DNA from: Heterodontus francisci | Taxonomy: Eukaryota | Direction: 5' to 3' | DNA length: 64,000 bases | Assembly (NCBI RefSeq): GCF_036365525.1 | Contig: NC_090383.1 | Location: 120,220,531 to 120,284,530, forward strand | Part shown: piece after piece, positions 1 to 62,991 of the stretch | Layout of the letters: the number at the start of each line of letters is the position of its first letter | How positions within the stretch are numbered: the stretch's first letter is position 1 | Notes under the pieces: model-generated | Database searches by the model: none | What the model was told of the DNA's origin: nothing | Seen by the model: only the letters and a program-made list of their open reading frames with translations | Translations under genes and position numbers: made by a program

Positions 1-727
1 TCTACACTGTCCCATCAAACACTCCCAGGACAGGTACAACACGGGGATTGGCTGCCCACTGATTTGGGAGCCTGAGTGCATCAACGAGGTGCAGCTGAGA
101 GTGCTGGTGGCAGTTGGAGGTTGCAGAGGTGGAGAGAGGAGCTACACTGAGCAAGGGAGAGCTTCTACAAACAAGCAGAGGAAAACTCCAACAACAATCA
201 CCTTTAAAAGAGAAGAAAGTGACATTCTTTTTTTTGTTGGAAACAAGGCTTTGTCTGGAGGTGGGTGCTGAACACCAGTAATTTACTTTGGACTGTTGGG
301 GGAGGAACAAGTGGCTGGAACAACAAGGGGTGGGGCTGCCAATTCAACAGGAGTCTGTGCTGCTGCAAAAGCACACAGGGAAGCTCCCTCCCCACCCCAA
401 TTGCCAAGCCTGGGTCAGCTGAAGCTGCCCAGCTAAACAGACGGAAGGGGATAGATAGTGCCTGGGCAGCTTCAGCTGACCCAGGTGAAGACGACTCCCC
501 CAACCAGAAGACCGGAAGACCAACTTCAAAGACTGTTTGTTTTAAGTGTACTGTGAGCACCACCTCCAGAAAGCAAGTCATCCCTTCCAGCCTGCCTTTG
601 CCTCTCCTCTCTTACCTCAGCCTCTCCACTAACCTGTTGTTTGTTTGTTTGTCTTTTCAAATCTTTCTGTGAATCTGTTATTTAGTGTGCAAGTCCACAA
701 TTTGGGGTGGGTTTAGCTCTTGGACCC

Positions 728-2770: not shown

Positions 2771-2802
2771 GCTGTTGGTGACGGGTTTTACGTACCTTTG
2801 AC

Positions 2803-5800
2803 ATGAAGATAACCATAGCCAGCCTCAACATCAACGGCAGCAGAGGGGCTCACCGCAGATTTCACAATCTCTCAGTCCTTAGGGAAGGGAGATACGCGGT
2901 GAGCTTTCTGCAGGAAACCCACACCGTTCCGGGAGACGAAGCCACCTGGCTCCTGGAGTGGCAGGGTGGGGTCTACATGAGTCACCTCACCCCTATTTCT
3001 AGTGGGGTGGCTATCTTGTTGGCCCCGACTTTTCAGCCGGAGATCTTGGGGGTCAAGGAGCTAGTGCCGGGCCGCTTGCTCCACCTCGCCGTTCGCCTGG
3101 GTAGCGTGCCGCTCCACTTTGTGAACGTGTACGCGCCCAGGCCCGGCGCTTTGCAAGCGCGCTTCTTTGAAGAAGTGTCCGCTCTCTTGAGCTCCATCGA
3201 TAGCGGCGAGTGCATCATCCTCGGGGGGGATTTTAACTGCACCCTCGAGGTGGGGGATCGCTCCGGTCCCCAGCGCGGCCAAGCGTCGGTGGAGAAGTTG
3301 AGGGGACTGATCAGCTCCCTTAACTTGGTGGACGTCTGGCGGAATCTCCATCCCGACTCCAGCGCCTTCACGTGGAGGTCTGGAGGAGGGGGGTCGCGAA
3401 TCGACCGCCTCTACATTTCGCAGGCGTACGTCTCCCGTGTCTCGGCGGCCTCCATGCGGCTGGTGCCGTGCTCGGACCACCGCCTGGTGTGGGCGGAGTT
3501 CACTCCGCTCCGCACGCGGGCGGGGTCCGCGTACTGGCACTTTAACAACCGGCTGCTGGAGGACGTGCGATTTCGGGACTCGTTCTGTCGATTCTGGGCC
3601 GACTGGAGAAGGAAGCAGGGGGGCTTCCCCTCCTTGAGGCTATGGTGGGATGTGGGCAAGACTCACATCCGCGTCTTCTGTCAGGAGTACGCGAAGGGGT
3701 CGACCAAGAGGCGGGAAGCCGAGGTCGGGCGCCTTGAGAGGGAGGTGCTCGACTTGGAATCCCGCCTCGGTCATGCCGTCGCGGACCCGGCCCTGTGGCA
3801 GGCGTACAAAGAGAAGAAGGGCGCGCTGAGGAACCTGCAGCTCATAGGGTCCCGAGGCGCGTACGTGAGGTCGCGGATCCAGATCCTGGAAGATTTGGAC
3901 CGCGCCTCACCCTTCTTCTACTCGCTGGAAAAATGGCGGGGGGTCCGTAAGCAGCTCGTCGAGCTGCTGGCCGACGACGGATCCTCCATCACGGATCCGG
4001 AGAGAATGGGCCTCCTGGTCCGGACGTATTACAGTGCGTTGTTCTCTCCGGATCCGTCCAGCGGGGATGCGCGCAGAGTTTTGTGGGAGGACCTGCCGCA
4101 GGTCGGCCCGGAGGGCGCCGAAGGATTGGAGGCTCCGCTCACGTTGGCGGAGCTGACTGGCGCCCTCCACCAGCTCTCGAGGGGCAAATCCCCAGGGCTG
4201 GATGGGTTGACCGTGGAGTTCCTCAGGGCGTTCTGGGACGTCCTGGGGGACGATTACGCGCGGGTCCTGGGGGAAAGCCTGGCGACCGGGGAGATGCCCC
4301 TCTCGTGGCGCAGGGCGGTCATCGTCCTGCTGCCGAAGAGGGGCGATCTCCGCCTGCTTAAAAACTGGCGTCCGGTCTCCCTCCTCAGCACGGATTATAA
4401 GATCTTTGCCCGGGCTATGTCTACCCGCCTGGGCTCCGTGCTGGCCCACATGATCCACCCCGACCAGTCCTACACGGTCCCGGGCCGGTCCATCCAGGAC
4501 AACATCCACCTGGTCCGGGACCTGATCCATCTTTCCCAGAGGACTGGTCAGTCGGTCGCCTTTCTCTCCCTCGATCAGGAGAAGGTGTTCGACAGGGTGG
4601 ATCACGATTACCTTTTCGGGACTCTGCGCGCTTTCGGACTCGGGCCGCATTTTGTGGCCCGGGTCCGACTTTTATACGCCGCCGCAGAGTGTCTAGTCAA
4701 AGTTAACGGGTCCTTGACGGCGCCCCTTCGATTTGGGAGAGGAGTGCGTCAGGGGTGCCCCATGTCCGGCCAATTGTATACCATCTGCGTGGAGCCCTTC
4801 CTGTGCCTGCTTCGCAGGAGGTTGACGGGATTGGCTCTGCGCGAGCCGGCCATGCGGGTCGTCCTCTCGGCTTACGCCGACGACGTGCTCCTCGCAATCA
4901 CAGATCCCGTTGACTTGCGGAGGATGCGCGACTGCCAGCAGACCTTTTCTGCCGCGTCCTCCGCGAGGATCAATTGGGAGAAATGTTCCGGACTCCTGGT
5001 TGGTCAGTGGCGGGTGGACTCCCTGCCGGAGGAGATGACACCTTTTGCGTGGAGCACCACGCACCTCCTCTATCTGGGAGTCCACCTTAGCCCCGCTGAG
5101 GAAGCCTGGCCGGCAAACTGGCAGGAGTTGGAGGCGAAAGTCACCGCTCGGCTGGGGCGCTGGACAGGACTGCTCCGAGTGCTTTCCTACAGGGGCCGAG
5201 CGTTGGTCATAAACCAACTGGTGGCCTCCATGCTGTGGTACCGGTTGGTCACTTTGGCCCCGCCCCCTGTATTTGCCACCAAGATCCAGAAGAAACTCGT
5301 CGATTTCTTCTGGGGCAAGAGGAAACACTGGGTCTCTGCCGCGGTCCTGAGTCTCCCGATCGAGGAGGGCGGTCAGTCGCTGGTGTGCGTCCGCACCCAG
5401 GCTGCGACTCTCCGCCTTCGGACCCTGCAGAGATACCTGTACGTCGAGCGTCCTCCCAGATGGTGTGCGCTGGCGACGTATTTTTTCCGCCAGTGTCACT
5501 GCCTTCAAGACGACACGCAGCTCCCGGTGGAGTCCGTTAGCCGCGCCTCTCTGAGGGAGTTGCCTGTCTTTTACCGGGATCTTTTCCGAGTCTGGAACAT
5601 GGTCGCCTCCAGTCAGGGCGCTCCCCCGCCGGCGGAGGGGAGCGCCTCGGCTGTCCGGGCGGCCGACTCCGGGGACGGTCCGGCGGGCGGAGGAGTAGCC
5701 GAAACCCCCGGGACGCCCCTCACTGCGGGTGGCGAGGGGGCTCGGGAGTGCGGAGCGATCCCGGCCGAGCCGACCCCCGCTCGGCCGGAACTGCTCATCG

Positions 5801-6540
5801 GACCCAGGCCCCGAAACCCTCCTCGGGAGCCGGTCCCGCACAACCCGAGCCGCCTCTCGGAAATGCCCTCCGTGCCATTCCAATCGGCGCGGAGGGGTTT
5901 CCTGTACGGGCTGCTCCTGCACACTTTCCACTTCCTCGCCCTCGTCAGCCGGCCGGACACGCCCTGGCGGTCCGCGTTGCCATCTGGCGGCGAGGGGAAA
6001 CCCCGATGGAGGTCTCTCTACGCGGGAGTCTTCCCCCTTTACATCGGGGACCTGGGGTGGAGGGTGCTGCACAGAGCAGTCCCGTGCAATAGGCTTTTAA
6101 GTAGGTTCACGGACTCCCAGGCCACCTGTACTTTCTGCGGCCTGGACGAGTCCGTGTTCCACATTTATATGGAGTGTGCGAGGTTGCAGCCCCTATTTGA
6201 GTATCTGAAGGGGCTGCTCCTCAAATTCTGGCTGCACTTCAGTCCCACGCTCCTGATCTTTGGGCACCCGGTGCGGAGGGGCTCGGGCCGGGAGGAGGAT
6301 CTCCTCGTCGGTCTGCTCCTGGGCCTGGCCAAGGTGGCAATTCACAGGTCCAGGTTGCGGGCCGTCGGGGGGTCCGTCCTCCCCGATTGCCTGCCCCTCT
6401 TCCGCGGTTACGTTCGCGCCCGGGTGTCCCTGGAAAAGGAGCATGCGGTGTCCGCCGGTACGCTTGAGGCCTTCCGCGACCGGTGGGCACCGCAGGGACT
6501 GGAGTGCATCGTCGACGCCGAGAATGGCATTTTAATTTGA
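2803..6540 (+). CDS. Tx1 ORF2p: APE endonuclease, reverse transcriptase, C-terminal zinc finger
   Basis: 1245 aa with SLNING, LQETH, GGDFN, SDH; KSPGLDG, NWRPVSLL, RQGCP, YADD; CTFC..H...C. Confidence 0.95.
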   Translation: MKITIASLNINGSRGAHRRFHNLSVLREGRYAVSFLQETHTVPGDEATWLLEWQGGVYMSHLTPISSGVAILLAPTFQPEILGVKELVPGRLLHLAVRLGSVPLHFVNVYAPRPGALQARFFEEVSALLSSIDSGECIILGGDFNCTLEVGDRSGPQRGQASVEKLRGLISSLNLVDVWRNLHPDSSAFTWRSGGGGSRIDRLYISQAYVSRVSAASMRLVPCSDHRLVWAEFTPLRTRAGSAYWHFNNRLLEDVRFRDSFCRFWADWRRKQGGFPSLRLWWDVGKTHIRVFCQEYAKGSTKRREAEVGRLEREVLDLESRLGHAVADPALWQAYKEKKGALRNLQLIGSRGAYVRSRIQILEDLDRASPFFYSLEKWRGVRKQLVELLADDGSSITDPERMGLLVRTYYSALFSPDPSSGDARRVLWEDLPQVGPEGAEGLEAPLTLAELTGALHQLSRGKSPGLDGLTVEFLRAFWDVLGDDYARVLGESLATGEMPLSWRRAVIVLLPKRGDLRLLKNWRPVSLLSTDYKIFARAMSTRLGSVLAHMIHPDQSYTVPGRSIQDNIHLVRDLIHLSQRTGQSVAFLSLDQEKVFDRVDHDYLFGTLRAFGLGPHFVARVRLLYAAAECLVKVNGSLTAPLRFGRGVRQGCPMSGQLYTICVEPFLCLLRRRLTGLALREPAMRVVLSAYADDVLLAITDPVDLRRMRDCQQTFSAASSARINWEKCSGLLVGQWRVDSLPEEMTPFAWSTTHLLYLGVHLSPAEEAWPANWQELEAKVTARLGRWTGLLRVLSYRGRALVINQLVASMLWYRLVTLAPPPVFATKIQKKLVDFFWGKRKHWVSAAVLSLPIEEGGQSLVCVRTQAATLRLRTLQRYLYVERPPRWCALATYFFRQCHCLQDDTQLPVESVSRASLRELPVFYRDLFRVWNMVASSQGAPPPAEGSASAVRAADSGDGPAGGGVAETPGTPLTAGGEGARECGAIPAEPTPARPELLIGPRPRNPPREPVPHNPSRLSEMPSVPFQSARRGFLYGLLLHTFHFLALVSRPDTPWRSALPSGGEGKPRWRSLYAGVFPLYIGDLGWRVLHRAVPCNRLLSRFTDSQATCTFCGLDESVFHIYMECARLQPLFEYLKGLLLKFWLHFSPTLLIFGHPVRRGSGREEDLLVGLLLGLAKVAIHRSRLRAVGGSVLPDCLPLFRGYVRARVSLEKEHAVSAGTLEAFRDRWAPQGLECIVDAENGILI

Positions 6541-14885: not shown

Positions 14886-17876
14886 CTACAATAGGAGTGT
14901 GCATGATAAACATTCGAAGGCCTGTCAACTCAGTGTTTTGCACATGACATTGGTCATGTGTAATAGGGGGCAAGGAAACACTTTGGCCATTTATCTGGTG
15001 TAAGATATTGGTGGGTCAACACCTGGCCATAAAAATATTTCCAGCGGTTTGATATGTGTCTTTGGATGATGGAGATTGAATTAGCACCTTGTGCAAACCC
15101 TGCTAGCACTGCGGGGTGGTGAGACTGCACTGGAGTGTCATACAGGGCTATTGTACTTGCTATCTCTTCCTGAAGTGCTCGCTCTATTTCTGAACCTGAA
15201 AATGCTGTGATTTTGTCTTTCCAACATTTCATTAGCAGTCTCCAGACTTTAAAACAAAACCAAAAAAAAAAACTTTTCTGCAAATGTTGGTGAGTAAACA
15301 TGGATTGTTAAATGATTGGTGAAGGCTTTTAAATAAGTTTCACAACAATTTTCATAATCTTCATGGGCAGTGTTGCAATCTTCAAACTCCTGCGTCAGCC
15401 TCGTTTAAAAAGTCTGCTTTAAAAATATTAATTTTAAGCAAACATTAAAGTGGGAAAATCATTTACAGCACTGAGCTGGCGATGAAGGTTTATCAGCAAA
15501 TAGCTAAATCACATTGGGCTCAATGCAAGAACATTTTTTATTTTTGCTGTACATTCAAAAATAATGCAAAATCATCCAAAAACAGAACAATGAATTTGAT
15601 TCCACCATTACAGAAGTGCAGTCTAAGCTGGGTTGAACTCAATATAGCGCAATTATAAAATTCAATTAGCATGATTACAGCATGTGTTTGGAGAAGTTGC
15701 ACAGCAAGCAACAAGTAGCAATCATGTGCTTCTGCTCTGTGACTTGGGGGACATTAGTATTAAGGCAGTATTCAGGCGACAAATTAACTGACATTGAAAC
15801 ACAATAGTCCTCTGAGAGGGAGAGCCCTCAGAGCATCAAGAGAGGGAGAGAGGAGCGAGCGAGCAAGAGGGACAGCAGCGATCTTCATAGGCGTTTCTCT
15901 GATTTCCCTGTTGTTTTATCTCCTCAGTTGATGCTGTGCTGTCTTTACAGGATTACTGTTGCTAATCAATGTTGTTTTTGCAGAAGCTCCTTCTAGCCAT
16001 TGAAGCAAGATTCTCTCTGTCCGATACAGTTCTGCAGTCTATTGGAACTCCGTCCTTCAAGCCAAAAACTCCTTATCATGGAAGTTTTAAGACTATTTGA
16101 AATATGCAAATAAAAGGAGTTGAAGGGATTGGAATATAACCTTACAGGGTCCAGTCCCTTTGACTGAAAATCTAATCCCAAATACATCAGGCACGATTTT
16201 CAGTCCCTGCCAGGGCAGGGAATGGGGCCCAGTGAGTGCTACAAATAGCACTGCTGACCTGTGTACTGGTTCCCCTGCTCCATTCTGTCCCTGGGCCCTC
16301 TTCCCGAGGCCACTGCTGGGACTGCACCCAGCCAACAGCAGGATCGTGGACTTCGGCCCCGGAACAAAGGTAAGTTTTGCAGCCCCGCCGGGGACAATTA
16401 GCCGGGTGCCGGCGAGGCTAGGGGGATCGGTTGGGCAGGGGGAAGGACCTTATTTCAGTGGTGGCAGTTGAGGCTTCGGGGGGCCCTCTGTGAGGCACAG
16501 GGTACCCGATCAGGAGACCCCACCCCAGCCGGCAAGGATTTAACTGGTGGCATTCTGGGGCCCTTAGCCATCCGCCTGTTGGGGGTAAAATACCTGCGGT
16601 GGCAGGTGGAGGCCCTTAAGTGGCAGATAATTGGTCACTTAAGGGCCCTGATTGGCCTGGGGAGGGCGGGCCGTTTGTTGCAGCTGCTGCCACGCGTAAA
16701 ATTGCAACGGGAAGGCATCGGGAATGGTACCACCCCCCCGCCAAGCCTCGCACTCAATTTTACAGCCCACCTCACCCCCGCCACCAACTCGCTCCTGTGG
16801 GGAGGGTAAAATTCCGACCATAGTAACAGATATTCCAGTTAAGGAAGTTTCGATTGTTTTTGTTGCAAACAAGAAAACCTCAGCTTGATTTAATTAAACT
16901 TTGTAAGATTATGAAGGCAAGTGTCAAAACAAATTGTTTCAATACCAGGAGAGACAGGTTAGGAAGACAGGAGCAAAGGTTAAAGTCAGACAGAACTTCA
17001 TTACCCAAAGGCTAATAGAATTGCAGAATCAGTAACTAAAGAATGTTCCTGATAGGAAGAGAATAATGGGTTCATGAGATAATCATAGGAGATTCTGGAG
17101 AGAAAAGGGATTGAGGAATTGGCTGAGGAATTGGGAGCTGACTTGTTAGGTCCTGCTCAAAATGTCCATCATATGTCCTTGTTCCCAGATCAGCATTTTT
17201 AGGAAATATTTCTTCTGTGGTTCAACTGTCAGCTGTTTGTTTATTGCCTGTTTGAACAAAATTTAAAATAAAGAAGTTATCTAAAGTAATCTAGTGTAAA
17301 ATGTGACAATCAAAGACAACTTCAGATGATGTCTATGTTTTTCCGGGGAGCTGGGTCTCGGGGTTGAGTGCTCTGTGATGATTCCAACAATGAGATTTGA
17401 GGACTCGTGAGCTGGGCAGAGCTATAAACTGGTTTGCTTCGCCACTCCTGCTCACTACATGGGGACTGCTGCTGGAACCTTCACTCCTGAATGACCAACT
17501 CTCTCCTTTGTTCTAAATTCTCCCACCAGAGGAAATAGTTTCCCTCGAATTTATCTAATCCTTTTTAACATTCTAGACACTTTGATTAAGTCACCACATT
17601 CCACCTTCTAAAGTCGAGGCAATATCATCCAGGTAATGCTATCTGTCCTAACAATTTAACCCTTTCAGTGCCTCTATTCTAATAGTACTCAGGTAGAAAT
17701 GAGGTTCAAAAAATTAATCAGAGGTAGATGTGTTTATCTCTGAAATAATAGTAACAAATAATTAATGATTATCAGAGTGTCAGTGGCCTGTGAATTGGTT
17801 GTTTTCCCTTGATAATGATGGTCAAATTTCCCAGAATTGATATGACATAGCTCTTGTTGGAAATGTCAGAGACAAT

Positions 17877-18731: not shown

Positions 18732-18912
18732 AATAATTTGTTTAATTTTTGAGACTGATGGAAGAACTTGAAATAGAAATTAATTGTACTGACTCTCTTT
18801 AACCTGATTTAGATATTCAGTGTTAACAAATGAGAAGATTTGTGTGTGTGTCCATGGGTGTTAATGATTTAATAAAAGCTGTTCTTTTCTACATAACATA
18901 AATTCCGCACCA

Positions 18913-19790
18913 TACTGGGCTACTGATGGCCCATTGTCACACTGGGCTACTGATGGCCCATTGTCACACTGGGCTACTGATGGCCCATTGTCACACTGGG
19001 CTACTGATGGCCCATTGTCACACTGGGCTACTGATGGCCCATTGTCACACTGGGCTACTGATGGCCCATTGTCACACTGGGCTACTGATGGTCCATTGTC
19101 ACACTGGGCTACTGATGGCCCATTGTCACACTGGGCTACTGATGGCCCATTGTCACACTGGGCTACTGATGCCCCATTCTCACACTGGGCTACTGATGCC
19201 CCATTGTCACACTGGGCTACTGATGCCCCATTGTCACACTGGGCTACTGATGGTCCATTGTCACACTGGGCTACTGATGCCCCATTCTCACACTGGGCTA
19301 CTGATGCCCCATTGTCACACTGGGCTACTGATGGCCCATTGTCACACTGGGCTACTGATGGCCCATTGTCACACTGGGCTACTGATGCCCCATTGTCACA
19401 CTGGGCTACTGATGCCCCATTGTCACACTGGGCTACTGATGCCCCATTGTCACACTGGGCTACTGATGGTCCATTGTCACACTGGGCTACTGATGCCCCA
19501 TTCTCACACTGGGCTACTGATGCCCCATTGTCACACTGGGCTACTGATGGCCCATTGTCACACTGGGCTACTGATGGCCCATTGTCACACTGGGCTACTG
19601 ATGCCCCATTGTCACACTGGGCTACTGATGCCCCATTGTCACACTGGGCTACTGATGGCCCATTGTCACACTGGGCTACTGATGGCCCATTGTCACATTG
19701 GGCTACTGATGGCCCATTCCCACACTGGGCTACTGATGGCCCATTGTCACACTGGGCTACTGATGGCCCATTTCCATGCTGGACTAACTG
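18913..19790. repeat. 27-bp minisatellite, ~32 copies (CACACTGGGCTACTGATGGCCCATTGT)
   Basis: Direct tandem repeat that gives the 9-aa periodic ORFs in three frames. Confidence 0.97.
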
Positions 19791-19910
19791 CTCTCTGACC
19801 ATTCCATGCATTATTTCTGCTATTGGTCCATCTTGCTTGAAGCTTTCCCACAGTTTCATCATTTATGCGCACGTGACAGATATATGTTTTGCCTGTACCC
19901 TTGTCAAGTG

Positions 19911-19967
19911 TTACAGAAACATACCTTTAAGCTCACTGTATATGGACTGATCCCGTCTCTGTAATGC
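19911..19967 (-). CDS. Exon 7: C-terminal part of ITAM (ALQRRDQSIYSELK-GMFL*)
   Basis: Acceptor ttctctattttctattAG, phase 0. Reads to TAA at 19913-19911. An internal GTATGT donor after 19925 could instead splice to a further exon. Confidence 0.82.
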   Translation of the reverse strand, partial: ALQRRDQSIYSELKGMFL

Positions 19968-20069: not shown

Positions 20070-20105
20070 CATGTATGTGGAATCTGCGGGATGATCGCCT
20101 GACCT
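20070..20105 (-). CDS. Exon 6: cytoplasmic exon, N-terminal part of ITAM (RSGDHPADSTYM)
   Basis: Acceptor tttcatttcAG, 36 nt, phase 0-0, GTAAG donor. Confidence 0.82.
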
Positions 20106-28755: not shown

Positions 28756-28829
28756 CTCTGTGTCTCTTATAGAAGAAATATTTTCATAATCTGCAGTTGT
28801 GTTCTGATTATCAGCTGCTCCCAATGATG
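28756..28829 (-). CDS. Exon 5: cytoplasmic exon with YENI motif
   Basis: Acceptor ttatttcacAG, 74 nt, phase 1-0, GTGAGT donor. Translation PSLGAADNQNTTADYENISSIRDTE. Confidence 0.85.
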
Positions 28830-29001: not shown

Positions 29002-29136
29002 GGGATTCTTTTTTTCCAAAAAGTGTGTATCTGGTGATTAAAATTCCTCCAATAACAGCAGTAACTGCCAGCAGAGCCCCCAGAATGATCCAGACAAGGG
29101 TCGTCTTCCCAACTTGATCCGTTTGTGTTTCAGAAA
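29002..29136 (-). CDS. Exon 4: short stalk plus transmembrane helix
   Basis: Acceptor ttttctttcacAG, 135 nt, phase 1-1, GTATGT donor. Translation SETQTDQVGKTT-LVWIILGALLAVTAVIGGILI-TRYTLFGKKES: 21 uncharged residues followed by basic residues. Confidence 0.88.
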
Positions 29137-46040: not shown

Positions 46041-46385
46041 TGGTTACATTCAGCTGGGTTCCATTCCCACTGATATCTCCCCACACTTTACAGTAATAGA
46101 CGGCAGTGTCATTGGGCTGCACGTTTGTGATTGTCAGAATGAAGCTGTTATTGGAGGTGTCTCTGGAAGACTGGAAACGGTCAGTGAAACCTGGGCTCCG
46201 TCGTGTGCTGTTCATTATATCATGTGTTAAAATCCACTCCATATCTTGTCCTGGGAGCTCCCGGTACCAGTGAACATCAGTGTCTCTCACTGCGGTGTTC
46301 GACATGGTGCACTGTAACCGCGCTGTGTGATCCTTTGTGACACGTTGCAGGATCGGAGACTGGATAAGAACTGGGACATCTGCAC
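46041..46385 (-). CDS. Exon 3: germline-joined VJ-type Ig V-set domain (V2), TCRgamma/IgL-like
   Basis: Acceptor ttttttgcttaaAG, 345 nt, phase 1-1, GTAAGT donor. Translation ADVPVLIQSP..RLQC..HWYRELPGQDMEWI..DRFQSSRD..DTAVYYCKVWGDISGNGTQLNVT. Confidence 0.95.
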
Positions 46386-48484
46386 CTTTAAGCAAAAAAG
46401 AAATCAATAAATTAAAAACCACTGTAAAGGTTGCAGAATATCCCTGGTATTTAAAGAGACAGACCAGGCAGTATCAGTTAGGTTGAACAGATTGTAAGAC
46501 TGAACCAGGGGAGTTATTCTATTTTTGATTCAGATCCAAATGGTGACAAGACTGTTTTGTGATCCCTGCCTTTTATCTGAATGAGTTCACCAACAGAAGA
46601 GCAAGCCCTTGATTCTAATCAATCCTCAATGATGATTGGAGAGTGACGATTGAGCTGCCCCAATAGCTCAATAAATCATTGCAAGTTCCAGATCCCACCA
46701 ATCTGGTACAGGGATTCAAAATGTATACACAGGACTGCAAAGCATGTGGAACAATTTGTAGCAAGAGTTAGCACATTCTAGAGAGGACGGGAAGGATTGG
46801 GAAAGAAAAGTATCACAGAAAATTCCAGGAGATGAAATTCATTGGACATCTGTTGCTTCATTCACAGTGTGATTAGTGAGCTGTGACTGATTGCTTTGAA
46901 ATCGAGGTAGACTTTTCCACATGACCCCTGTGCTGTGTTGGAGAGAGAACACACTGCTACCAGGAGAGGAGAAAGTGACTGTGCTGGAACACCAGCAGAG
47001 AGGCAACTGAAAAGAGAGACAGGAGAGACCCAAAGATTTAAGGGTTTCAATCTTTAGGCCTTGTATTGAGCAAATGCTTAACCAAGATAGGTTTTTGAAA
47101 CCGGAGGAGAGGGCGAGGTGTCTATCATTGGGCCTTCACCCCTCCAAAAAGTGGCATAAACAGGCCCTTTGCCACTCCCAATTACAACCAACATCTTTCC
47201 GATTTCTGATGGTAAAACAGAGGAAAATCCAGCTCTTCAATTCTTCTGTTTCTTTTCAGGAAATGCTTCACTGGACTCTATCCATCCATTTCATCTCCTG
47301 AGTAGTAGGTGCGCTCCCTGACATTTAAAGTTATTGATAAAGTAGTGGAGAGGGTTGATGAAGATAGTGCAGTTGATATTGTGTATTAGGACAAGCAAAC
47401 ACCTGTTAAAACTTTATAACACACTGGTTAGTTCCCAGCTGGAGTATTGTGACCAATTCTCGGCACCGTGCTCAGGAAGAATATCAAGGCCTTGGAGAGA
47501 ATGCTGAACAGATTTACTAGGATGGTACCGGGGATGCTGACCTTCTGTTACATGCAGAGACTGGAGAAGCTGAGGTTGTTCTCCTGAGAATAGGGACAGT
47601 TAAGGGAAGACATAACAGTGGTGTTCAAAATCACGAGGGTTTTTGATAGAATAAGGAGAAATTGTTTCCACTTTCAGGAATAAGAACAGTAAATGCTGGA
47701 AATATTCAGCAGGTCTGGCAGCATCTGTCGAGAGAGATGCAGAGTTAACGTTTCAGTTTGATGACCCTTCATCAGAACTGGCAGGAGGGTCAGTAACCAG
47801 TGGTTGCAGATTAAAGTTAATTGACAAAAGAAGCAGGAGAGGCCGATGAGAATTTTTTGGCACAGCGTGTTGTGATGATCTGGAATGCACTTCCTGAAAG
47901 GTTATGAAGCAGATTCAATAGTAATATTGAAAAGGAAATTGAATATATATTTGAAAAGGAGAATATTGCAGTGTTTCGGGGAGTTGGACTAATTGAACAG
48001 CTCTTTCAAAGAGCTGCCACTGGTACAGGTACAATGGGCTTTTAATGGTCTCCTTCTGTGCATTCTGATTCCGTCATGGAAACTTGTGAAAGGAGACTGG
48101 GGAGGGGAGATCGGGATGGAAGGAAGAGCAGCTACAGGCCACATATTGGCAGATGTTCCTTTAATACTTGCAATTTGAGTGAAAATTGAAAACATGGAAA
48201 ACATTCAGTTTGTGGGATTCCAGCAGCGGTAACACTGGGCCTGGTACTGGGGCAGATTTAATTCACTGCACTAACTCACCGCATCCTGCAGAGACTACAA
48301 CCCCCTCACATCACACACCGGCCTGCTCTCTGTGCAAGACTACGTTGATCCATTCTGGATTACACCATGGCACCTTGCAGGTTATAAAGCTGCCAGTTTG
48401 GTGGCTGTCTCGGCTGTTACTCTGACTGATTTGTCCAGCCTGACATCCTGGATTCGTTATTCCGAGTACAGAGTTGTGAATAGA

Positions 48485-49765
48485 AACATAGAAACTAGGA
48501 GCAGGAGTAGGCCATTCGGCCCTTCGAGCCTGCTCCGCCATTCATTATGATCATGGCTGATCATCCAACTCAGTAGCCTGTTCCAGCTTTCACCCCATAT
48601 CCTTTGATCCTTTTCACCTCAAGAGCTATATCTAACTCCTTCTTGAAAACATACAATGTTTTGGCCTCAACTGCTTTCTGTGGTAGCGAATTCCACAGGC
48701 TCACCACTCTCTGGGTGAAGAAATTTCTCATCATCTCTGTCCTGAAAAGTTTACGCCGTATCCTTAGACAATGACCCCTGGTTCTGGACTCCCCCACCAT
48801 CGGGAACATCCTTCTTGCATCTGCCCTGTCAAGTCCCATTAGAATTTTATAGGTTTCTATGAGATCCCCCCTCACTCTGCTGAACTCCATTGAATATAAT
48901 CCTAACCGACTCAATCTCTCCTCATACGTCAGTCCCGCCATCCCAGGAATCAGTCTGGTAAACCTTCGCTGCACTCTCTCTATAGCAAGAACATCCTTCC
49001 TCAGATAAGGAGACCAAAACTGCACACAATATTCCAGGTGTGGCCTCACCAAGGCCCTGTATAATTGCAGCAAGACATCGGCACAGTGGCGCAGTGGTTA
49101 GCACCGCAGCCTCACAGCTCCAGGGACCCGGGTTCGATTCCGGGTACTGTCTGTGTGGAGTTTGCAAGTTCTCCCTGTGTCTGCGTGGGTTTTCTCCGGG
49201 TGCTCCGGTTTCCTCCCACAAGCCAAAAGACTTGCAGGTTGATAGGTAAATTGGCCATTATAAATTGTCACTAGTATAGGTAGGTGGTAGGGAAATATAG
49301 GGACAGGTGGGGATGTTTGTTAGGAATATGGGATTAGTGTAGGATTAGTATAAATGGGTGGTTGATGTTCGGCACAGACTCGGTGGGCTGAAGGGCCTGT
49401 TTCAGTGCTGTATCTCTAATCTAATCTAATCCCTGCTCCTGTACACAAATCCTCTCGCTATGAAAGCCAACATACCATTTGCCTTTTTTACTGCCTGTTG
49501 CACCTGCATGCTTACCTTCAGTGACTGGTGTATGAGAATACCCAGGTCTCGCTGCATATTCCCCTCTCTCAGTTTATAGCCATTCAGATAATAATCTGCC
49601 TTCCTGTTTTTGCTACCAAAATGGATAACCTCACATTTATCCACATTATACTGCATCTGCCATGCATTTGCCCACTCACTCAACTTGTCCAAATCACCCT
49701 GAAGCCTCTCTGCATTCTCCTCACAACTCACCCTCCCACCCAGTTTTGTGTCATCTGCAAATTGG
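48485..49765 (-). mobile_element. CR1 3' fragment interrupted by a SINE
   Basis: ORFs 49426-49731 and 48570-49073 are consecutive CR1 RT pieces. Confidence 0.85.
49080..49430 (+). mobile_element. Full V-SINE/HE1-like SINE
   Basis: Pol III A/B boxes (tggcgcagtggttag, ggttcgattcc), V-core and (CTAAT)n tail. Confidence 0.85.
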
Positions 49766-50632
49766 GAGAGGTTTACGGATGCTGCAGATTGTCGCCCTGC
49801 TGCTGAACTTGTTGGGGAAGGTAGTAATACACTGTAAAAATATTATCATGTGCAAAAGCAAAATACTGCAGATGCTGGAAATCCGAAATAAAAAACGAAA
49901 ATTCTGTAAATATTCAGCAGGTTTAGCAGCATCTGTGGAGAGAGAAACAGAGTTAACATTTCATTTGATGACCTTTCAGATGAAACGTTAACATTATTTT
50001 TATGCAGCCAAGAAAACTGCAAGAAATCTGTGCAGCCTGTGAGAAACAGAACAGATCTAGCAAGCCGCACATTTACCTGGGCCTCAGCTGTGCCTAATTC
50101 CAATCGTCACGGTAACTTCTTCAGTCCAGGTGATGTAATTGTCTGTGCAGTCGGTGACTAATGTGGCCACAGCTGGGGTGCGTATAGAATTCACAAATGA
50201 TGAGCGATCACGATCCTATTTTAGAAATTACTTGGGTATATTCTCGGTGAAAGAGATGTTGGTGGAAATTCCCCAAAAGATGTAAATGTGGGAAAGAAAT
50301 GAAATCAGGTTTGATTGCTGTTGAGCCCCACTGGGTGGTCTAATAGAGTTAGTGGTCAGTACTGAGCCCCAGGGTGTTGATGGTGGGGAAATCAAGGATT
50401 TATTGAAAGCAGACTTTCATTTCCAGTTTCTGTTCTGTTATTTTTCTTCAATACTAATTCAATTTCTCAAACTGTCATGGTGAGATTTGAATCTATTCCG
50501 ATAATATAACCACCAAACTACTGTACCTGTTTTCAGAGCACAGGATGCAGTGTAGAGAGGATGAACTGAGGAGACAGGAGTAGAGGGAGCCGGAAAGACT
50601 GAAGGATCAAGGGAACTGGTGAGACAGAAGAG

Positions 50633-50634
<2 letters not shown>

Positions 50635-50670
<36 letters not shown>
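50635..50670 (+). repeat. (AAAG)n/(AG)n microsatellite
   Basis: Directly visible. Confidence 0.8.
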
Positions 50671-51780
50671 TGTGCAGAGCAGGCAGGAATAGTAAGGGAA
50701 GAGAGACTGATAATACGGAGATAACAAACTGAGTTATAGAAAGAGGGCAGAATTGGGACCAGACACCGATGGGGTCTGACTCCTGCCAGCCTGCGTGATC
50801 TTCCCAGAGCCCCATGCAATTAGAGCCAGTGGATGGGCTGCACAGGTTGGAGGTACAATCAGACTCTGGGCAGCTGGCAGCCTCACTGGGAGAGGTGGGT
50901 GCTGCCAATGTAGGTGGGAGATGGAGGCTCCCTCTGTAGAGTTCTTAAATTGTTCAAAGTAAGTGTAAAGTAAGCTACCAGGTCAACATTTTGGAGGGGT
51001 GACAGGATGACCTGCAGCCATAGCTACAGCCCTCTCGCACTTGCAGTACCGGGAGGTAAGGGGGTGTATTTAAAGGCAGCTTCACTGGCCCAAGGCCTGC
51101 TCTGAGCGGACGCCTCCAAGTACCTGCCGGGCTTCGGCCTTCGTGGAGGCCTGTCCACTGACAGGAAGATCGCTCGGAGGCAGGAACACATCAGGGAGCT
51201 GCCCAGACATGAGATTTCCCAAATTTACTCCCTGTCCCCACTCCAAACCCATCTCCATGGGACGGGGAAGATTCCATCCAGAAAGAACAGAGTGGACAGG
51301 TTTAAACAGTTGGCTGATCCAATAACGTCAGACCTCTGACCAGTGAGGAAACTTAGAATCAACCTCCCCTAAAATGTGATAAAGACATGAGAATAGAAAA
51401 TAAATTTGTGCAGATAAGAAATGCAAACAGACTTAAAATTCTTCATGGATTCTGGATAAATGTTGTGGACTTTCAAAAGGCATCTGACAAAGCATCATAC
51501 AATAAACTAATTAACAAAATAAAATCCCACAGAATAAACAGACTGTGGCAACGTGGATATAAAATTGTCTATGGGGCAGAAAGGGGAGAGTAGAGCTGAA
51601 CAGTTATTTTCCAAAATGGAAGGAAATATACTGTGGTTAGCCCCAATGGTTAGTGTTGGGAACACTGCTCATTTTAATATATATTACAGACCCGAACCTG
51701 GCTGTGCAGGAAATAATTTCAACGTTTGCAGATGATGCAAATTTTAAAATGCAGTAAACAATGAGGAGGATAGTAACAGA

Positions 51781-52570
51781 AATAGAAACAGAAAAGGCTG
51801 GAAATACTCAGCAGGTCCAGCAGCATCTGTGGAAAGAGAAACAGAGTTAACATTTCATGTCAGTGACCTTTCATCAGAACTGGCAAAGGCTAGAAATGTA
51901 ATAGGTTTTAAGCAAGTGAAGCAGGAGTTGGGGGAGCGGGGTGTGGAGAAGAGAACAAAAGGGAAGGTGTGTGATAGGGCAGAAGGCCAGAGAGATTAAA
52001 TGACAAAGATGTCATCAGACAAAGGCAAAATGAGTGCTAATGGTGTGGTGAAAGACAAAGCATTAGTGCTGAGAGTGTATTAATGACAGAATAATGAACA
52101 GCTCCTTCCAAAAGCACAAACATGAAAAAACAAGTTTAAGGCAGGCAGATGGTTAAAATAGAATAAAATAAAACAAAATCATAATAAAAAAAAAGGCCAG
52201 TCATGCTCTGAAATTATTGAACTTAATGTTTAGTCCGGTAAACTGTAGAACGCCCAATCGGAAAATGAGATGATGTTCCTTGAGCTTGTGTTGATGTTCA
52301 CTGGAACACTGCAACAGGCCGAGGACAGAAATGTGGGCATGGGAGTAGGGTGGTGAATTGAAATGGCAAGCAACCGGAAGCTCAGGCTCATGCTATTACA
52401 TTAACCCCCTATTTACCTATTACATTTCTAACCTTTGCCAGTTCTGATAAAAGGTCATAGACCTGAAACGTTAACTCTGCTTCTCTCTCCACAGATGCTG
52501 CCAGACCTGCTGAGTATTTCCAGCACTTTCTGTTTTTATTTCAGATTTCCAGCATCTGCACTAATTTGCT
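51781..52570. mobile_element. Penelope-like element remnant with inverted terminal repeats
   Basis: ~51781-51905 is the reverse complement of ~52420-52545. Confidence 0.65.
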
Positions 52571-52619
52571 CTTATATTAGGATAATAACAGACTTCAGGA
52601 CAGCATAGTAATATAGTTT

Positions 52620-53440
52620 AGGATAGTAACAGCAGGGCATGGATAGACTGGTGAAATGCGCACATATATGTATGATTACATTTAATACAGAGAATTATGA
52701 AGTGACACATTTTGGTAGGAATAATGAGGGATAGCAATATAGATTCAATGGTACAATTGTAAAGGGAGTGCAGGAACAGAGAGACCTGGCGGTGTATGTA
52801 TGAAAGCCTTTGGAGGTGGTAGGACAAGTATATGAGATCCTTGGCTTTATTGATAGAGGCACAGAGTACAAAAGCAAGCAAGTTACCATAAACCTTAATA
52901 AAACACTGATTCATCCCAGCTGATGTATTGTGTTCAACTCTGGGCATCACAATTTAGGAAGCTTGTCAAGACTTTGGTGAGAGTGTAGAAGAGATTTACT
53001 AGAATGGTGACAAGGATGAGGGATTTCAGTTCTGTGGGGAGACTGGTGAACCTTGGATTGTTCTCCTTAGAAGAGAGAAGGTGAAGAGGAGATTTGATAG
53101 AGGTGTTCAAAATCATGAAGGGTTTTGATTGAGTAAAAGAGAAACTGTTTCCAATGGGAGGTGAATTGGGAACCAGGGGAGACAGATTGAAGGTGATTGG
53201 CAAAAGAACCAGAAACACCATGAGGAAATGTCTTTTTATCCAGTGTGTGGTTGTGATCTGAATGCACTGCCTAAAAGGCAGTGGAAGCCAATTCAATAGT
53301 AACTTTTAAAAGAGAATTGGATCAATATTGAATTGAAAAGAATTACAGGTTTCTGGGGAAAGAGAAGGTGGTGTAGAAGCTGTAGCCTGCACAGACGTGA
53401 TTGGTCGAATGGTTTTCTTTTGTCTTGTCTCATTCTATTA
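52620..53440 (+). mobile_element. Degenerate CR1 3' fragment
   Basis: CR1 RT C-terminal nucleotide motifs (ggagatttgatagaggtgttcaaaatcatg). Confidence 0.7.
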
Positions 53441-55594
53441 TTGTAGGACTGGTTGTGAAGCACTTTGGAACGAGTTGAGGTCAGGACAGTCGATATATAA
53501 ATGGAAGTTTTTCTTTACTGGGCTGTCCTTGTGCCTAGTTGGGTTCGAGAGAGAAGAGATTAAAAAAGGAAAGAAGGTAATGAATGTTGTAACACAACAC
53601 AGGAGATCCAGTTGAACTGGTCAAAGTCCTCCTGGAGACTCAAACCACTTGTGACACTAGCCCTTCCATTTCCTCCCCATTCCAAAGCACAGAGATCTTT
53701 CTCCAGGAGCACTGTATAAATACAGGTTGATTTTCTATTGATCCTCTGTCTGCTGTTATTGTTACTTTGTCAGCAGCTTTATCATCTCTGTTTATTCTGT
53801 AAGCTTTAGGCATTTTAATAGAGTGAGCTCACATGGATGACATTCGTCAAATAGTTGTTGTAATACCAAATTAGAGGTCATGAGTTCAAATCAATTATGA
53901 AATTATAATTTAATATCTGGGTAATTTATGCACTGGCACCAGAAAAAGGAGCATGAAAGCTGCTGGATTTTTATAAAAACCCACCTGGTTCAATAATGTC
54001 CTTCAGGGATGGCTGAGCCACCTCAAATTGTTCCAAACCACATGTGACTCCCATCCAGCACTACATTGTTGACTCAATGCAACCGGCAACTAAGGATGGG
54101 AAAGAAATAATTCCTCGGCAGTGTCACCCATACCCAAGCACAAGGATATAAAATATGATATAACACCTTCCAGACCCTCAGGTCACCCTGTGATGTCCTG
54201 GGGACTTAAGTGAGCTTTAGCTGAGTTTAATATAAGGTATGAGGCAAAGACAGAGAGACAAAGACTGCAGCAGCTGAACATAATGGTTTCTTCTTTTATT
54301 CTCTCAGTTTCACTTTCTGTTTGTGGGCGTGTGTATTGTACAGCAGCCTCTGGAGTACACAATGCACAATGAAATTGCAATTTCAAAATACTACAACACT
54401 ACCCAACTCAATGCACTTCTCAGCCAATGAACTACATTTGAATTGCAGTCATTGTTGCTGTGTATGAAAACAGTGAATAATTTATGCACAGCAAGATCCC
54501 ACAAACAGCAATGAGAGAAACAATTAGATAAAGTGTTTTAACGATGTTGGTTGAGGGCTGAATATTAGCCAGGAAACCGGGAGAACTTCCCAGATCAGCT
54601 TCAAATCTTGATCTGGTACCTTTTACATGACCTGAACAGACAAAGCCTTAATTTAACATTTCAATCAACCAGCATGATCTCTGATAACACCACACTGACT
54701 CAGTACTGCACTGAAGTACCAACCTGATCTCACACAAACAGACACAGCCCTGGTATTTATGGGGAGGTGGAGAGAGTGCAGGGGAGGATGAGCACGGATG
54801 GAAAATTTGGCAAGAGTCAGATGTGGGGGTCCAGCTGAACCTAACAGGAAAACCACATTCTCCTTATTAGATCCATTTCCCGCTGGGCAGATGGGCAAAT
54901 GGACCGAGCGCTGAGAGTGAACAGCAAAGCTAGGAGGACACAGCTGACAACACTCGGGGACTGTGCCTACCAATGGGGAGGGGAAGAAAGAGAGGCTGCA
55001 ATCAGGGTGTGGTGGGGGGTGCAGTGGGGAGGAGGAGAGAGAGAATCCATGATCAGGAGTGAGGTAGGAGAGAGGGGCGTGGACAGGGCCCTCAGTAGGG
55101 GCAGAGACAGAGAGAGAATGAGGGGTAGAGGCTGCAGTTAAGGCTGTTGCGAGGAAGGAGTGAGAGAGAGAGAGAACCAACTGATAATCTGAATGGGAAG
55201 GTGGAAGGGAGAGAGAGAGAGACCACAAACAGGAGGGGGAAAGAGAGACCATGATTTGGTTGGGAAACAGGGAGAAAGGCTGTGATTGGGAAGGTGAATA
55301 CTGCAATACTGGAGTGTAACAAGGAGAGGCTGCGATTGATTTTGGGGTGAAGCAGAGAGCCCATGATTAGAAGGGCATTACTGGATTCTGTGTATGAGTG
55401 TGAAATATTGTCCCATTTGTTTACACACTCATTTATTCAATTAAACGCAAATTGAATGTAGCTCAGATTTTACCCTCTATTCTATTGTTAAAACACAATT
55501 CTGTAAAAGAAACTGTTTAGAAAGCATTTATTTAAATGAGATGCTTGTATAGTATTATTTGGAATAAAATCAATGTAATATAGAAAGTACTTAC

Positions 55595-55948
55595 TGGTTA
55601 CATTCAGCCGGGTCCCTTTTCCAAGGAGTTTCCCCCAAATCCCACAGATATAGACAGTGCTGTCACTGAGCTGTGTGTCTGTGATGGTCAGAATGTAACT
55701 GTTATTGACAACATCTCTGGAAGGCTGAAACCGCAGAGACAATCCTTTTGATCGGTAAACCTGGTCATTTACAAAAAGACTCAATATTACGTGACTCTTA
55801 TTTTCTGGATGATACCAGTGTGCAGTATATTTCTCCACAGTGTAATTTGAGTTGCTGCTCTGTAAGTCACAGCGAAACTTCACTGTTCCACCCTTGGACA
55901 CCTTCACAACATCTGGGGATTGGATAAGAACTGTACTTGCCTCCAGAC
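55595..55948 (-). CDS. Exon 2: germline-joined VJ-type Ig V-set domain (V1)
   Basis: Acceptor ttttctattcacAG, 354 nt, phase 1-1, GTAAGT donor. Translation GLEASTVLIQSP..KFRC..HWY..DSTVYICGIWGKLLGKGTRLNVT has B-strand Cys, C-strand Trp, D-x-x-x-Y-x-C and a J-like GxGT. Confidence 0.92.
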
Positions 55949-56554
55949 CTGTGAATAGAAAATAACTGAAAATCAGAACAAATGAGGAACAACAAAATAT
56001 AACTTGAAACTGAATCTATTATCAAATCTTGGAAATGTTTATAAATAGATATGTATTCTCATCACTAATTTGTAGCCTAGTTGTTTAAACATATCCCGAA
56101 CTTCGCTCTTTCACATTGGACTGTCCTGACCAACAGTATCAGCCGAGCTTTATGTCCTCAAGTCTCTGGAGTGGGATTTGAACTGAGCCCTAGCTGACAC
56201 ACAGTGGGACGGGGTCTGGAGTGGAACCATCAGCTGGAGGCAAATCTGACACCAAACGTGTGCTGGTTTGGATGGGTGCCTGCAGAGCTCCGAGCTATGA
56301 ACAGAGCAGGTTCAGCCAGGAACAGTGCTGTTTCTGCATGTTAAGGGTGGACTAAGTTTAAATTGTTAATGTAAACGGTGAACAGCAGTAGTCCCAGCAC
56401 TGACCCTTGTGGAACCCCACTTCTAGCTAAACTAAAAGCAAAACACTATAGATGCTGGAAATCTGAAATAAAAACAGAGTGCTGGAAATACTCAGCAGGT
56501 CTGGCAGTATATGTGGAGAGAGAAACGGTCTGTGACCCTTCATCAGAACATCAT

Positions 56555-62939: not shown

Positions 62940-62991
62940 CCACTGCCACACAAAGGGTCAGAGTCAGGACTGAAAGGGTCAAGCCAAACAT
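62940..62991 (-). CDS. Exon 1 (signal peptide) of V-V-TM-ITAM Ig-superfamily receptor: MFGLTLSVLTLTLCVAV(G)
   Basis: ATG at 62991, 17 mostly hydrophobic codons plus 1 nt, then a GTAAGT donor (62939-62934). Phase 1 matches the V1 acceptor, giving ...CVAV-G-LEA/STVL, a typical Ig split leader. Confidence 0.85.

What the first reader, a model, noticed from the sequence alone, without database searches (positions are those of the whole stretch)
46041..55948. Two paralogous germline-joined VJ exons with ultra-short CDR3 and cassette potential
Seen: both exons start with VLIQSP and end in C-x-x-WG-x-x-x-G-x-GT-x-LNVT. They share an identical 22-nt stretch across the donor (gtacttactggttacattcagc on +), so they arose by internal duplication. 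The J motif F of FGxG is replaced (LLGKG, ISGNG). V2 keeps WYRELPGQDMEWI, while V1 has a shortened C-C' region (WYHPENKSHVI). Both exons are phase 1-1 and leader+V2 would give a plausible CVAVGA/DV cleavage, so V1-only, V2-only and V1V2 isoforms are all in frame. The V1-V2 linker is too short for scFv-like intrachain pairing (inference).
Basis: partly seen in the sequence, partly recalled or inferred. Interest (0 to 1): 0.7.

Follow-up and report, generated by a model that had tools for sequence, protein, structure and literature searches.

The report
Shark antibody-like paired activating receptor
These two exons encode the outer antibody-like domains of a shark cell-surface receptor with a predicted "on" tail, lying head to head with a near-identical gene that has a predicted "off" tail; both belong to a shark, ray and chimaera family whose domains were likely borrowed from an antibody light-chain gene.

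Summary
The two exons are real. They are V1 and V2 of one eight-exon gene lying wholly in the window (17222-62991, minus strand), identical to horn shark RefSeq XP_067901728.1: leader, V1, V2, uncharged transmembrane segment, and a tail with an ITAM split by a phase-0 intron. About 30 kb away a divergent paralogue has 86-96% identical V1 and V2 and an ITIM/ITSM tail. Relatives occur in 23 cartilaginous fish species, 13 with both tail types; none was found in bony vertebrates. The six-residue junction is family-wide (336 of 354 domains). The nearest rearranging relative is a light-chain class I label sigma-2 (about 40% identity). Origin by germline joining is favoured, but a pre-RAG relic was not rejected (AU p 0.24). 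V1 and V2 split before sharks and rays did, so the 22-nt match does not show recent duplication. V skipping is in frame and appears in gene models, but this gene's V2-only model has no signal peptide. Ten paper searches found no description of the family; this scan's own unreviewed notes already report it from other genomes.

The parts
62940..62991 (-). Leader exon (coding part, 17 codons + 1 nt); first half of a split leader
   Evidence: a contig joins leader to V1, carrying four leader differences that point to the paralogue
55595..55948 (-). V1: membrane-distal single-exon VJ domain; variable C-C'/C' region; predicted ligand-binding domain
   Evidence: covered edge to edge in 4 of 4 laid runs
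46041..46385 (-). V2: membrane-proximal single-exon VJ domain, junction CKVWGDISGNGT conserved across sharks and rays
29002..29136 (-). Transmembrane exon, no charged residue in the span
28756..28829 (-). Cytoplasmic exon 1 with YENI (Tyr310; YxN-type adaptor site by motif, inferred)
20070..20105 (-). Cytoplasmic exon 2, ends with DSTYM (first ITAM tyrosine, Tyr331); phase-0 intron follows
19925..19967 (-). Cytoplasmic exon 3, ALQRRDQSIYSELK (rest of the ITAM, Tyr342)
17222..17247 (-). Last coding exon to the stop codon

Best explanation
V1 and V2 are the two tandem, non-rearranging VJ domains of a single-pass receptor whose own tail carries an ITAM, and it likely acts as the activating member of an activating/inhibitory receptor pair. 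The domains are predicted to stack head to tail. The variable C-C' face of V1, not the fixed six-residue junction, likely binds the ligand. Clustering would phosphorylate the ITAM and recruit a Syk/ZAP-70 kinase without an adaptor chain, while the facing gene with near-identical V1 and V2 and ITIM/ITSM motifs would recruit SHP phosphatases. Exon-limited sequence exchange likely keeps the two ectodomains alike, as in CEACAM1/CEACAM28, so that the activating copy answers microbes that exploit the inhibitory one. The VJ exon most likely came from a sigma-2 light-chain V and J joined in the germline, lost its constant exon, was multiplied as a phase 1-1 module and acquired signalling tails before chimaeras and sharks split (about 0.55 for this origin step alone).
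For: Shown: the eight exons splice to RefSeq XP_067901728.1 exactly. ITAM DSTYM|ALQRRDQSIYSEL with a phase-0 intron in the first YxxL, the split that PMC2110893 calls typical (Fig. 2 legend, passage). Divergent paralogue on C13 at 120.313-120.380 Mb with four V exons and tail motifs TVYAAV, LYYADI, TEYAVV; V1 86% and V2 96% identical. Homology between the two genes covers V1 plus short flanks (724 nt, 85%), V2 (407 nt, 95%) and the leader region (598 nt, 75%); the other rows over 90% lie in introns and were not followed up. Among 133 family proteins from 23 species, 28 have an ITAM and 45 a terminal ITSM/ITIM; 13 species have both. In 8 of 11 hand-picked ITAM/ITIM pairs V1 is closer within a species than to the best same-tail gene of another species. 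V1 is less conserved than V2 in 35 of 45 cross-species pairs, most so at C-C'/C'. Model: two V folds at pLDDT about 81-96, a TM helix, a disordered tail. Origin: mean identity of 22 family domains is 39-41% to shark sigma-2 V against 24-30% to lambda, sigma, IgH, TCR and CD8b-like V; family, sigma-2 and joined VJ-C genes form one branch at 95/93 and 95/96; V1 exon ends are in register with sigma-2 V and J; a joined VJ with a sigma-2-like J and a still shorter junction sits at the end of the sigma-2 array of this genome. Germline joining of Ig genes is known in cartilaginous fish (PMC4279169, passages).
Against: No ligand, cell type, phosphorylation or signalling was tested; function rests on motifs and gene arrangement. 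The excess of replacement changes in V1 between the two genes is not significant (21 against 4, Fisher p 0.62). Three of the 11 pairs do not show the within-species pattern, and some pairs may be alternative models of one locus (one is 100% identical). The chimaera models retrieved carry no ITAM or ITIM. AU tests rejected none of three alternative trees: all rearranging V on one side p 0.24; all IgL without the family p 0.11; family with sigma-2 alone p 0.33. Family monophyly was strong in one tree (99/96) but weak with more outgroups (62/50 and 58/92). Sigma-2 has short branches, which inflates identity to it. The split-leader register is shared with lambda and a split leader is reported for UrIg2, so it does not single out sigma-2. 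The class labels sigma-2, lambda, sigma, TCR-gamma, CD8b-like and NITR-like are mine, from recalled sequence features and gene anatomy; the databases call several of them 'lambda-1 light chain-like'.
Confidence: 0.75

Rival explanations
1. Same paired receptor, but a pre-RAG relic: the VJ exon was never split, and the family, joined VJ-C genes and CD8b-like V descend from the non-rearranging ancestor, with sigma-2 simply the slowest-evolving rearranging V.
For: A tree with all rearranging V on one side is only 1.4 log-likelihood units worse (p-AU 0.24). A coelacanth CD8b-like V and a coelacanth VJ-C fall beside the family. That CD8b-like V hits V2 (40%) next after its own orthologue in this genome. 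Sigma-2 V and J are joined in coelacanth, gar and turtle (PMC5985310, passages). Non-rearranging VJ relics exist in sharks (UrIg, UrIg2; PMC12227049, parts 1-3 of 8).
Against: Identity is clearly higher to one light-chain class than to CD8b-like V (39-41% against 25-29%). No bony-vertebrate member was seen among the listed hits of two word-based searches and one full HMM search. The locus is not on the MHC contig (0 of 64 MHC class I matches on C13), where known relics lie.
Confidence: 0.27
2. The gene is mainly a cassette device: regulated V1-only, V2-only and V1V2 isoforms diversify specificity or reach.
For: All three forms are in frame. Eight model pairs in 6 species differ by exactly one V exon. 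RefSeq lists a V2-only model for this gene.
Against: Seven of the 8 pairs drop an internal or membrane-proximal V of a longer gene and keep V1. The one that drops V1 is this gene's leaderless model; the only sequence match for its first exon in 264 kb lies 104 kb upstream of V1, beyond the ITIM gene. In 4 of 4 runs the V1 contigs extend two letters past the donor, which fits a next exon starting GT (V2) and not TT (TM). The pairs are gene models, not reads seen here.
Confidence: 0.15
3. The domains pair like antibody V domains (homodimer, or with IgH V as a surrogate light chain) and form a fixed antigen-binding site.
For: Light-chain-like ancestry and exon anatomy; fixed-specificity germline-joined IgM1gj/sigma-2 antibody exists in nurse shark (PMC4279169).
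Against: The residues that form the VL-VH interface (by recalled IMGT positions) are eroded: position 118 is Ser in 107 of 163 V2-type domains, position 103 is Ile in 64 of 71 V1-type domains, and Gln44/Pro50 are absent from V1 and V2 (alignment). There is no C1 domain, and the protein has its own TM and ITAM.
Confidence: 0.08

Closest known systems
Ig light chain sigma-2 (sigma-cart, horn shark type I, NS5)
   Same: Nearest rearranging V (V2 49-50%, family mean 39-41%); shared VPVL-Q-P and RFQ-SRD-S-NS-ILTI stretches; same exon register at both ends; germline-joined forms known.
   Different: No recombination signal, no C1 domain, tandem V domains, six-residue junction, type I membrane protein with its own signalling tail, different chromosome (C13 against C46).
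CEACAM1 with CEACAM3/CEACAM28 paired receptors
   Same: ITIM gene and ITAM gene with homogenised N-terminal V domains; ITAM in the receptor's own tail split by a phase-0 intron (PMC2110893, passages).
   Different: The ectodomain is an antigen-receptor-type VJ with canonical cysteines and a J motif; no CEACAM chain was among the 60 best PDB matches shown for either exon.
Teleost NILT
   Same: One or two V-type domains with ITAM or ITIM in the cytoplasmic tail, clustered multigene family (PMC3022915, search listing and start of abstract only).
   Different: NILT V domains are CD300/TREM/NKp44-like (recalled), not light-chain-like; no NILT sequence was compared here.
Teleost NITR
   Same: Non-rearranging V with J-like motif, ITIM tails, multigene cluster (recalled).
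   Different: NITR has V plus I domain and activating forms mostly use a charged TM residue (recalled). A NITR-like V averaged 25% identity to the family and was an unstable long branch.
UrIg / UrIg2, NCR3 (NKp30), PRARP
   Same: Single-exon VJ, non-rearranging; split leader reported for UrIg2.
   Different: UrIg and UrIg2 have C1 domains and lie in the MHC and the Ig/TCR complex; NKp30 and PRARP are described as MHC VJ genes. This gene has no C domain and is not on the MHC contig. Their sequences were not in my trees.

Membership tests
Paired activating/inhibitory IgSF receptors | Linked genes with near-identical ectodomains and opposite signalling motifs | tested here: met
   V1 86%, V2 96%; ITAM against ITIM/ITSM; leaders about 30 kb apart, head to head
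Paired activating/inhibitory IgSF receptors | Concerted evolution of ectodomains within species | tested here: met
   8 of 11 hand-picked pairs for V1; the two horn shark genes are sisters at both V1 and V2
Paired activating/inhibitory IgSF receptors | Shared ligand, co-expression and opposite signalling in cells | not testable with these tools
   Both V1 variants appear among contigs of one sample; no cell-level data
ITAM-bearing receptor | YxxL-x(6-8)-YxxL in the tail, first YxxL split by a phase-0 intron | tested here: met
   YM|AL-x7-YSEL; PMC2110893 legend
Ig light chain sigma-2 | V domain of the sigma-2 clade | tested here: inconclusive
   Nearest class by identity and same branch, but outside the sigma-2 group and AU tests do not decide
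Ig light chain sigma-2 | One VJ followed by one C1 domain, no membrane anchor | tested here: not met
   Two V domains, TM and tail; no C1 match in 264 kb with a sigma-2 chain as query
Ig light chain sigma-2 | Conserved VL-VH interface residues | tested here: not met
   Positions 103 and 118 and 44, 50 replaced; position numbering recalled
UrIg / UrIg2 | VJ followed by C1 domains; MHC or Ig/TCR-complex linkage | tested here: not met
   No C1 domain; C13 neighbours are a nicotinic receptor alpha subunit, DUF4772, PAQR-type, MCM3 and IL-17 genes
NCR3 (NKp30) | Single VJ, charged TM residue, MHC linkage (recalled) | tested here: not met
   Two V domains, uncharged TM, not on the MHC class I contig; shark NCR3 sequences not compared, paper not held
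NITR | V plus I domain ectodomain | tested here: not met
   Both domains are V-set and paralogous; 25% mean identity to one NITR-like V
NILT / MDIR (CD300-TREM-like) | CD300/TREM-type V with extra disulfide (recalled) | tested here: not met
   Only the two canonical cysteines per domain; no NILT or MDIR sequence was aligned

The most novel reading that the evidence does not exclude
The family is a living pre-RAG lineage: unsplit VJ receptors, sister to all immunoglobulins and T-cell receptors, that still signal through their own ITAM or ITIM. [quoted passage not shown]
Probability: 0.25. Interest if true: 0.85.

Novelty: new variant of a known kind. Interest (0 to 1): 0.6.

Why it matters
Sharks have few characterised NK-type or myeloid paired receptors, and this family supplies a candidate system across sharks, rays and chimaeras that databases misname (pIgR-like, SIRP-like, IGSF3-like, perlecan-like). 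Either origin is of interest. If it came from a germline-joined light chain, an adaptive gene was recycled into innate receptors. If it predates RAG, it is a candidate for the ancestral antigen receptor with built-in signalling. The horn shark locus is small (one intact ITAM gene facing one intact ITIM gene), which makes it a convenient test case. The cassette idea that prompted the finding is the least supported part.

Tried and rejected
Homodimer prediction of the V1V2 ectodomain: no answer, score 0.00 in two runs, controls not folded; not used either way. Run search: no RNA holder listed on record; the four runs laid are RNA by the tool's guess, from one sample, and are contigs. MHC linkage rejected. 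No CD8b-like gene near the locus: the best match is on C1. Positive selection on V1 between the two genes not significant. A tree with NITR-like rows lost resolution; 15 of 52 rows were left out for and the AU tests (4 long rows, 11 redundant). Foldseek and PDB sequence searches gave only antibody V domains and engineered tandems. Bony-vertebrate members: none named among 118 hits, 120 listed of 127, or the best 150 of 3908 representatives; of those 150, 23 domains with a six-residue junction or a high score were read and 10 proteins were named, so absence is not proven. Neighbour genes come from 150 of 877 candidate ORFs. Literature: 10 searches found no description of the family; three key papers were not held, subscription journals are largely missing, and no supplements were read, so a mention there cannot be excluded. 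First domain classification by regex was replaced by nearest-reference classification. Exon bounds of c2 and c3 were one base off and were corrected.
Full report
Observation. Each is a V-set domain that runs from V into a J-like end without a break. The 22-mer occurs twice in the window. All three splice combinations are in frame.

The gene. A homologue search with V2 returned proteins identical to the window, named as Heterodontus francisci RefSeq models XP_067901728-30. Mapping the longest onto the window gave eight coding exons from 62991 to 17222, and their splice reproduces it exactly. After V2 come an uncharged TM segment, a YENI motif and an ITAM, DSTYM|ALQRRDQSIYSEL, with a phase-0 intron inside the first YxxL. 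PMC2110893 calls that split typical of ITAMs (figure legend). AlphaFold2 gives two confident V folds, a TM helix and a disordered tail; pTM is 0.45, so the angle between domains is not settled. Five residues separate the last strand of V1 from the first of V2, and Foldseek fits to scFv chains have rmsd about 13-16 A, in line with a head-to-tail stack.

Expression. In 4 of 4 runs (one sample, RNA by the tool's guess, contigs only) V1 is covered from 55593 to at least 55881, in three listed cases to 55946-55949, and the intron bin below it has zero depth. One contig matches the whole exon with no difference and has extra letters at both ends. The two-letter overrun at the donor fits a next exon that begins GT, as V2 does and the TM exon does not; this is indirect. 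One leader-to-V1 joint carries four leader differences and likely comes from the paralogue.

The locus. The window lies near the end of contig C13. A second gene starts about 30 kb beyond the leader on the opposite strand, with leader, V1, V2, V3, V4, TM and a tail holding TVYAAV, LYYADI and TEYAVV. Its V1 and V2 are 86% and 96% identical to ours, and the similarity is confined to the exons and short flanks. Thirteen of the 16 V1 substitutions lie between residues 33 and 71, but the replacement excess is not significant. A broken copy and a lone V2 follow. Neighbours are a nicotinic receptor alpha subunit on one side and DUF4772, PAQR-type, MCM3 and IL-17 genes on the other; from recall these match human 8p21 and 6p12. 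None of 64 MHC class I matches is on C13.

The family. The searches gave 133 family proteins from 23 species, including Callorhinchus. They have one to nine V domains. An ITAM is present in 28 and a terminal ITSM/ITIM in 45; 13 species have both. The chimaera models show neither. The junction has six residues between the second cysteine and the J Phe position in 336 of 354 domains; 14 could not be scored and 4 differ, one being the light chain itself. V1, V2 and V3 types each include shark and ray members, so the duplication is older than that split. In 8 of 11 pairs that I chose, V1 of the ITAM gene is closer to V1 of the ITIM gene of the same species than either is to its best counterpart elsewhere. 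Across 10 ITAM genes V1 averages 61% identity and V2 67%, with the most variable columns at C-C'/C'. The J Phe is usually kept in V1 and replaced by Ser in V2.

The 22-mer is kept at 18-22 of 22 positions at all 8 donors checked and its intron half is the common light-chain J donor, so it marks the family and not a recent event. On cassettes, 8 model pairs in 6 species differ by one V exon, 7 of them an internal or proximal V. This gene's V2-only model begins with a leaderless four-residue exon whose only match lies 104 kb upstream. Skipping is therefore plausible in the family but not shown for a secreted-pathway form of this gene.

Origin. The best non-family matches in the genome are a large array of V segments on C46 at 45-50% identity. 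Those examined have a 12-spacer recombination signal, a J and a C1 exon. I label them sigma-2 from recalled horn shark type I sequence; PMC5985310 Table 2 equates type I with sigma-2. Family domains average 39-41% identity to shark sigma-2 V, 31-35% to joined VJ-C genes and 24-30% to other V classes. Trees join family, sigma-2 and joined VJ-C genes at 95/93 and 95/96. A joined, frameshifted VJ with a sigma-2-like J and a CAIW-GPGT junction at the end of the C46 array suggests that such joins can be very short. Against certainty: three AU tests rejected nothing, a CD8b-like V falls in the same branch, and the answer depends on the root. I put germline joining at about 0.55, a pre-RAG relic at about 0.27.

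Mechanism. Shown: gene structure, motifs, pairing, family range, sequence exchange pattern. Inferred: ligand binding by the C-C' face of V1, ITAM signalling through Syk/ZAP-70, opposition by the ITIM gene, and a microbial driver, by analogy with CEACAM pairs.

Novelty. Paired ITAM/ITIM Ig receptors are a known kind; building them from antigen-receptor-type VJ exons is the new part. Ten searches found no description. Papers seen: PMC12227049 outline, parts 1-3 of 8 and passages; PMC10751288, PMC5985310, PMC4279169, PMC2110893 and PMC6795676 passages only; PMC3022915 listing only. Three relevant papers were not held. Eight unreviewed notes of this scan describe the same family in other genomes; I had reached my reading before opening them and they are not independent support.

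Noticed in passing
L054 (G000:C46:16884831-16885118, minus): Joined VJ exon at the end of the sigma-2-like array, starting PVLIQSP, with a frameshift near its start and a junction CAIW-GPGT that lacks the J Phe; looks like a germline join with heavy trimming.
   Followed up: partly
L067 (G000:C34:823795-824085) and P0224, P0250, P0256: Shark single-exon VJ genes, with a C1 domain in P0224 and P0250, that group near but outside sigma-2; possibly further non-rearranging light-chain-like classes.
   Followed up: partly
G000:C13:120380862-120381100, minus (L037): Candidate leaderless first exon of RefSeq isoforms X2 and X3, about 1 kb past the ITIM gene's last coding exon and antisense to it; a transcript from here would cross the whole ITIM gene.
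   Followed up: partly
G000:C13:120417353-120422240 and 120437282-120437611: A broken paralogue (interrupted V3 plus ITAM-type TM exon) and a lone V2 exon; a decayed V3 also lies inside the ITIM gene near 120365000.
   Followed up: no
L055 (G000:C650:263984-267528); C439 and C1995: Unplaced contigs hold a near copy of V1 and V2 only 3 kb apart and further family genes; haplotypes or misplaced parts of the cluster.
   Followed up: no
P0153, P0263, P0072, P0086: Further family subtypes: single-V models without a clear TM but with YxN motifs, and two-V models whose tails have YENI/YENV motifs but no ITAM.
   Followed up: no
P0108, P0121-P0124 (Callorhinchus): Chimaera domains have cysteines at the junction (C-C-V-W-G-D-V-C-G), suggesting an extra disulfide across the F-G hairpin; Cys at position 118 in 8 of 8.
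   Followed up: no
window 686-6537, plus: Two long open frames (694 and 1252 aa) of a non-LTR retrotransposon, read from the sequence only.
   Followed up: no
window 18864-19947: Tandem repeat with a 27-nt period, open in several frames, just downstream of the exon holding the second ITAM tyrosine.
   Followed up: no
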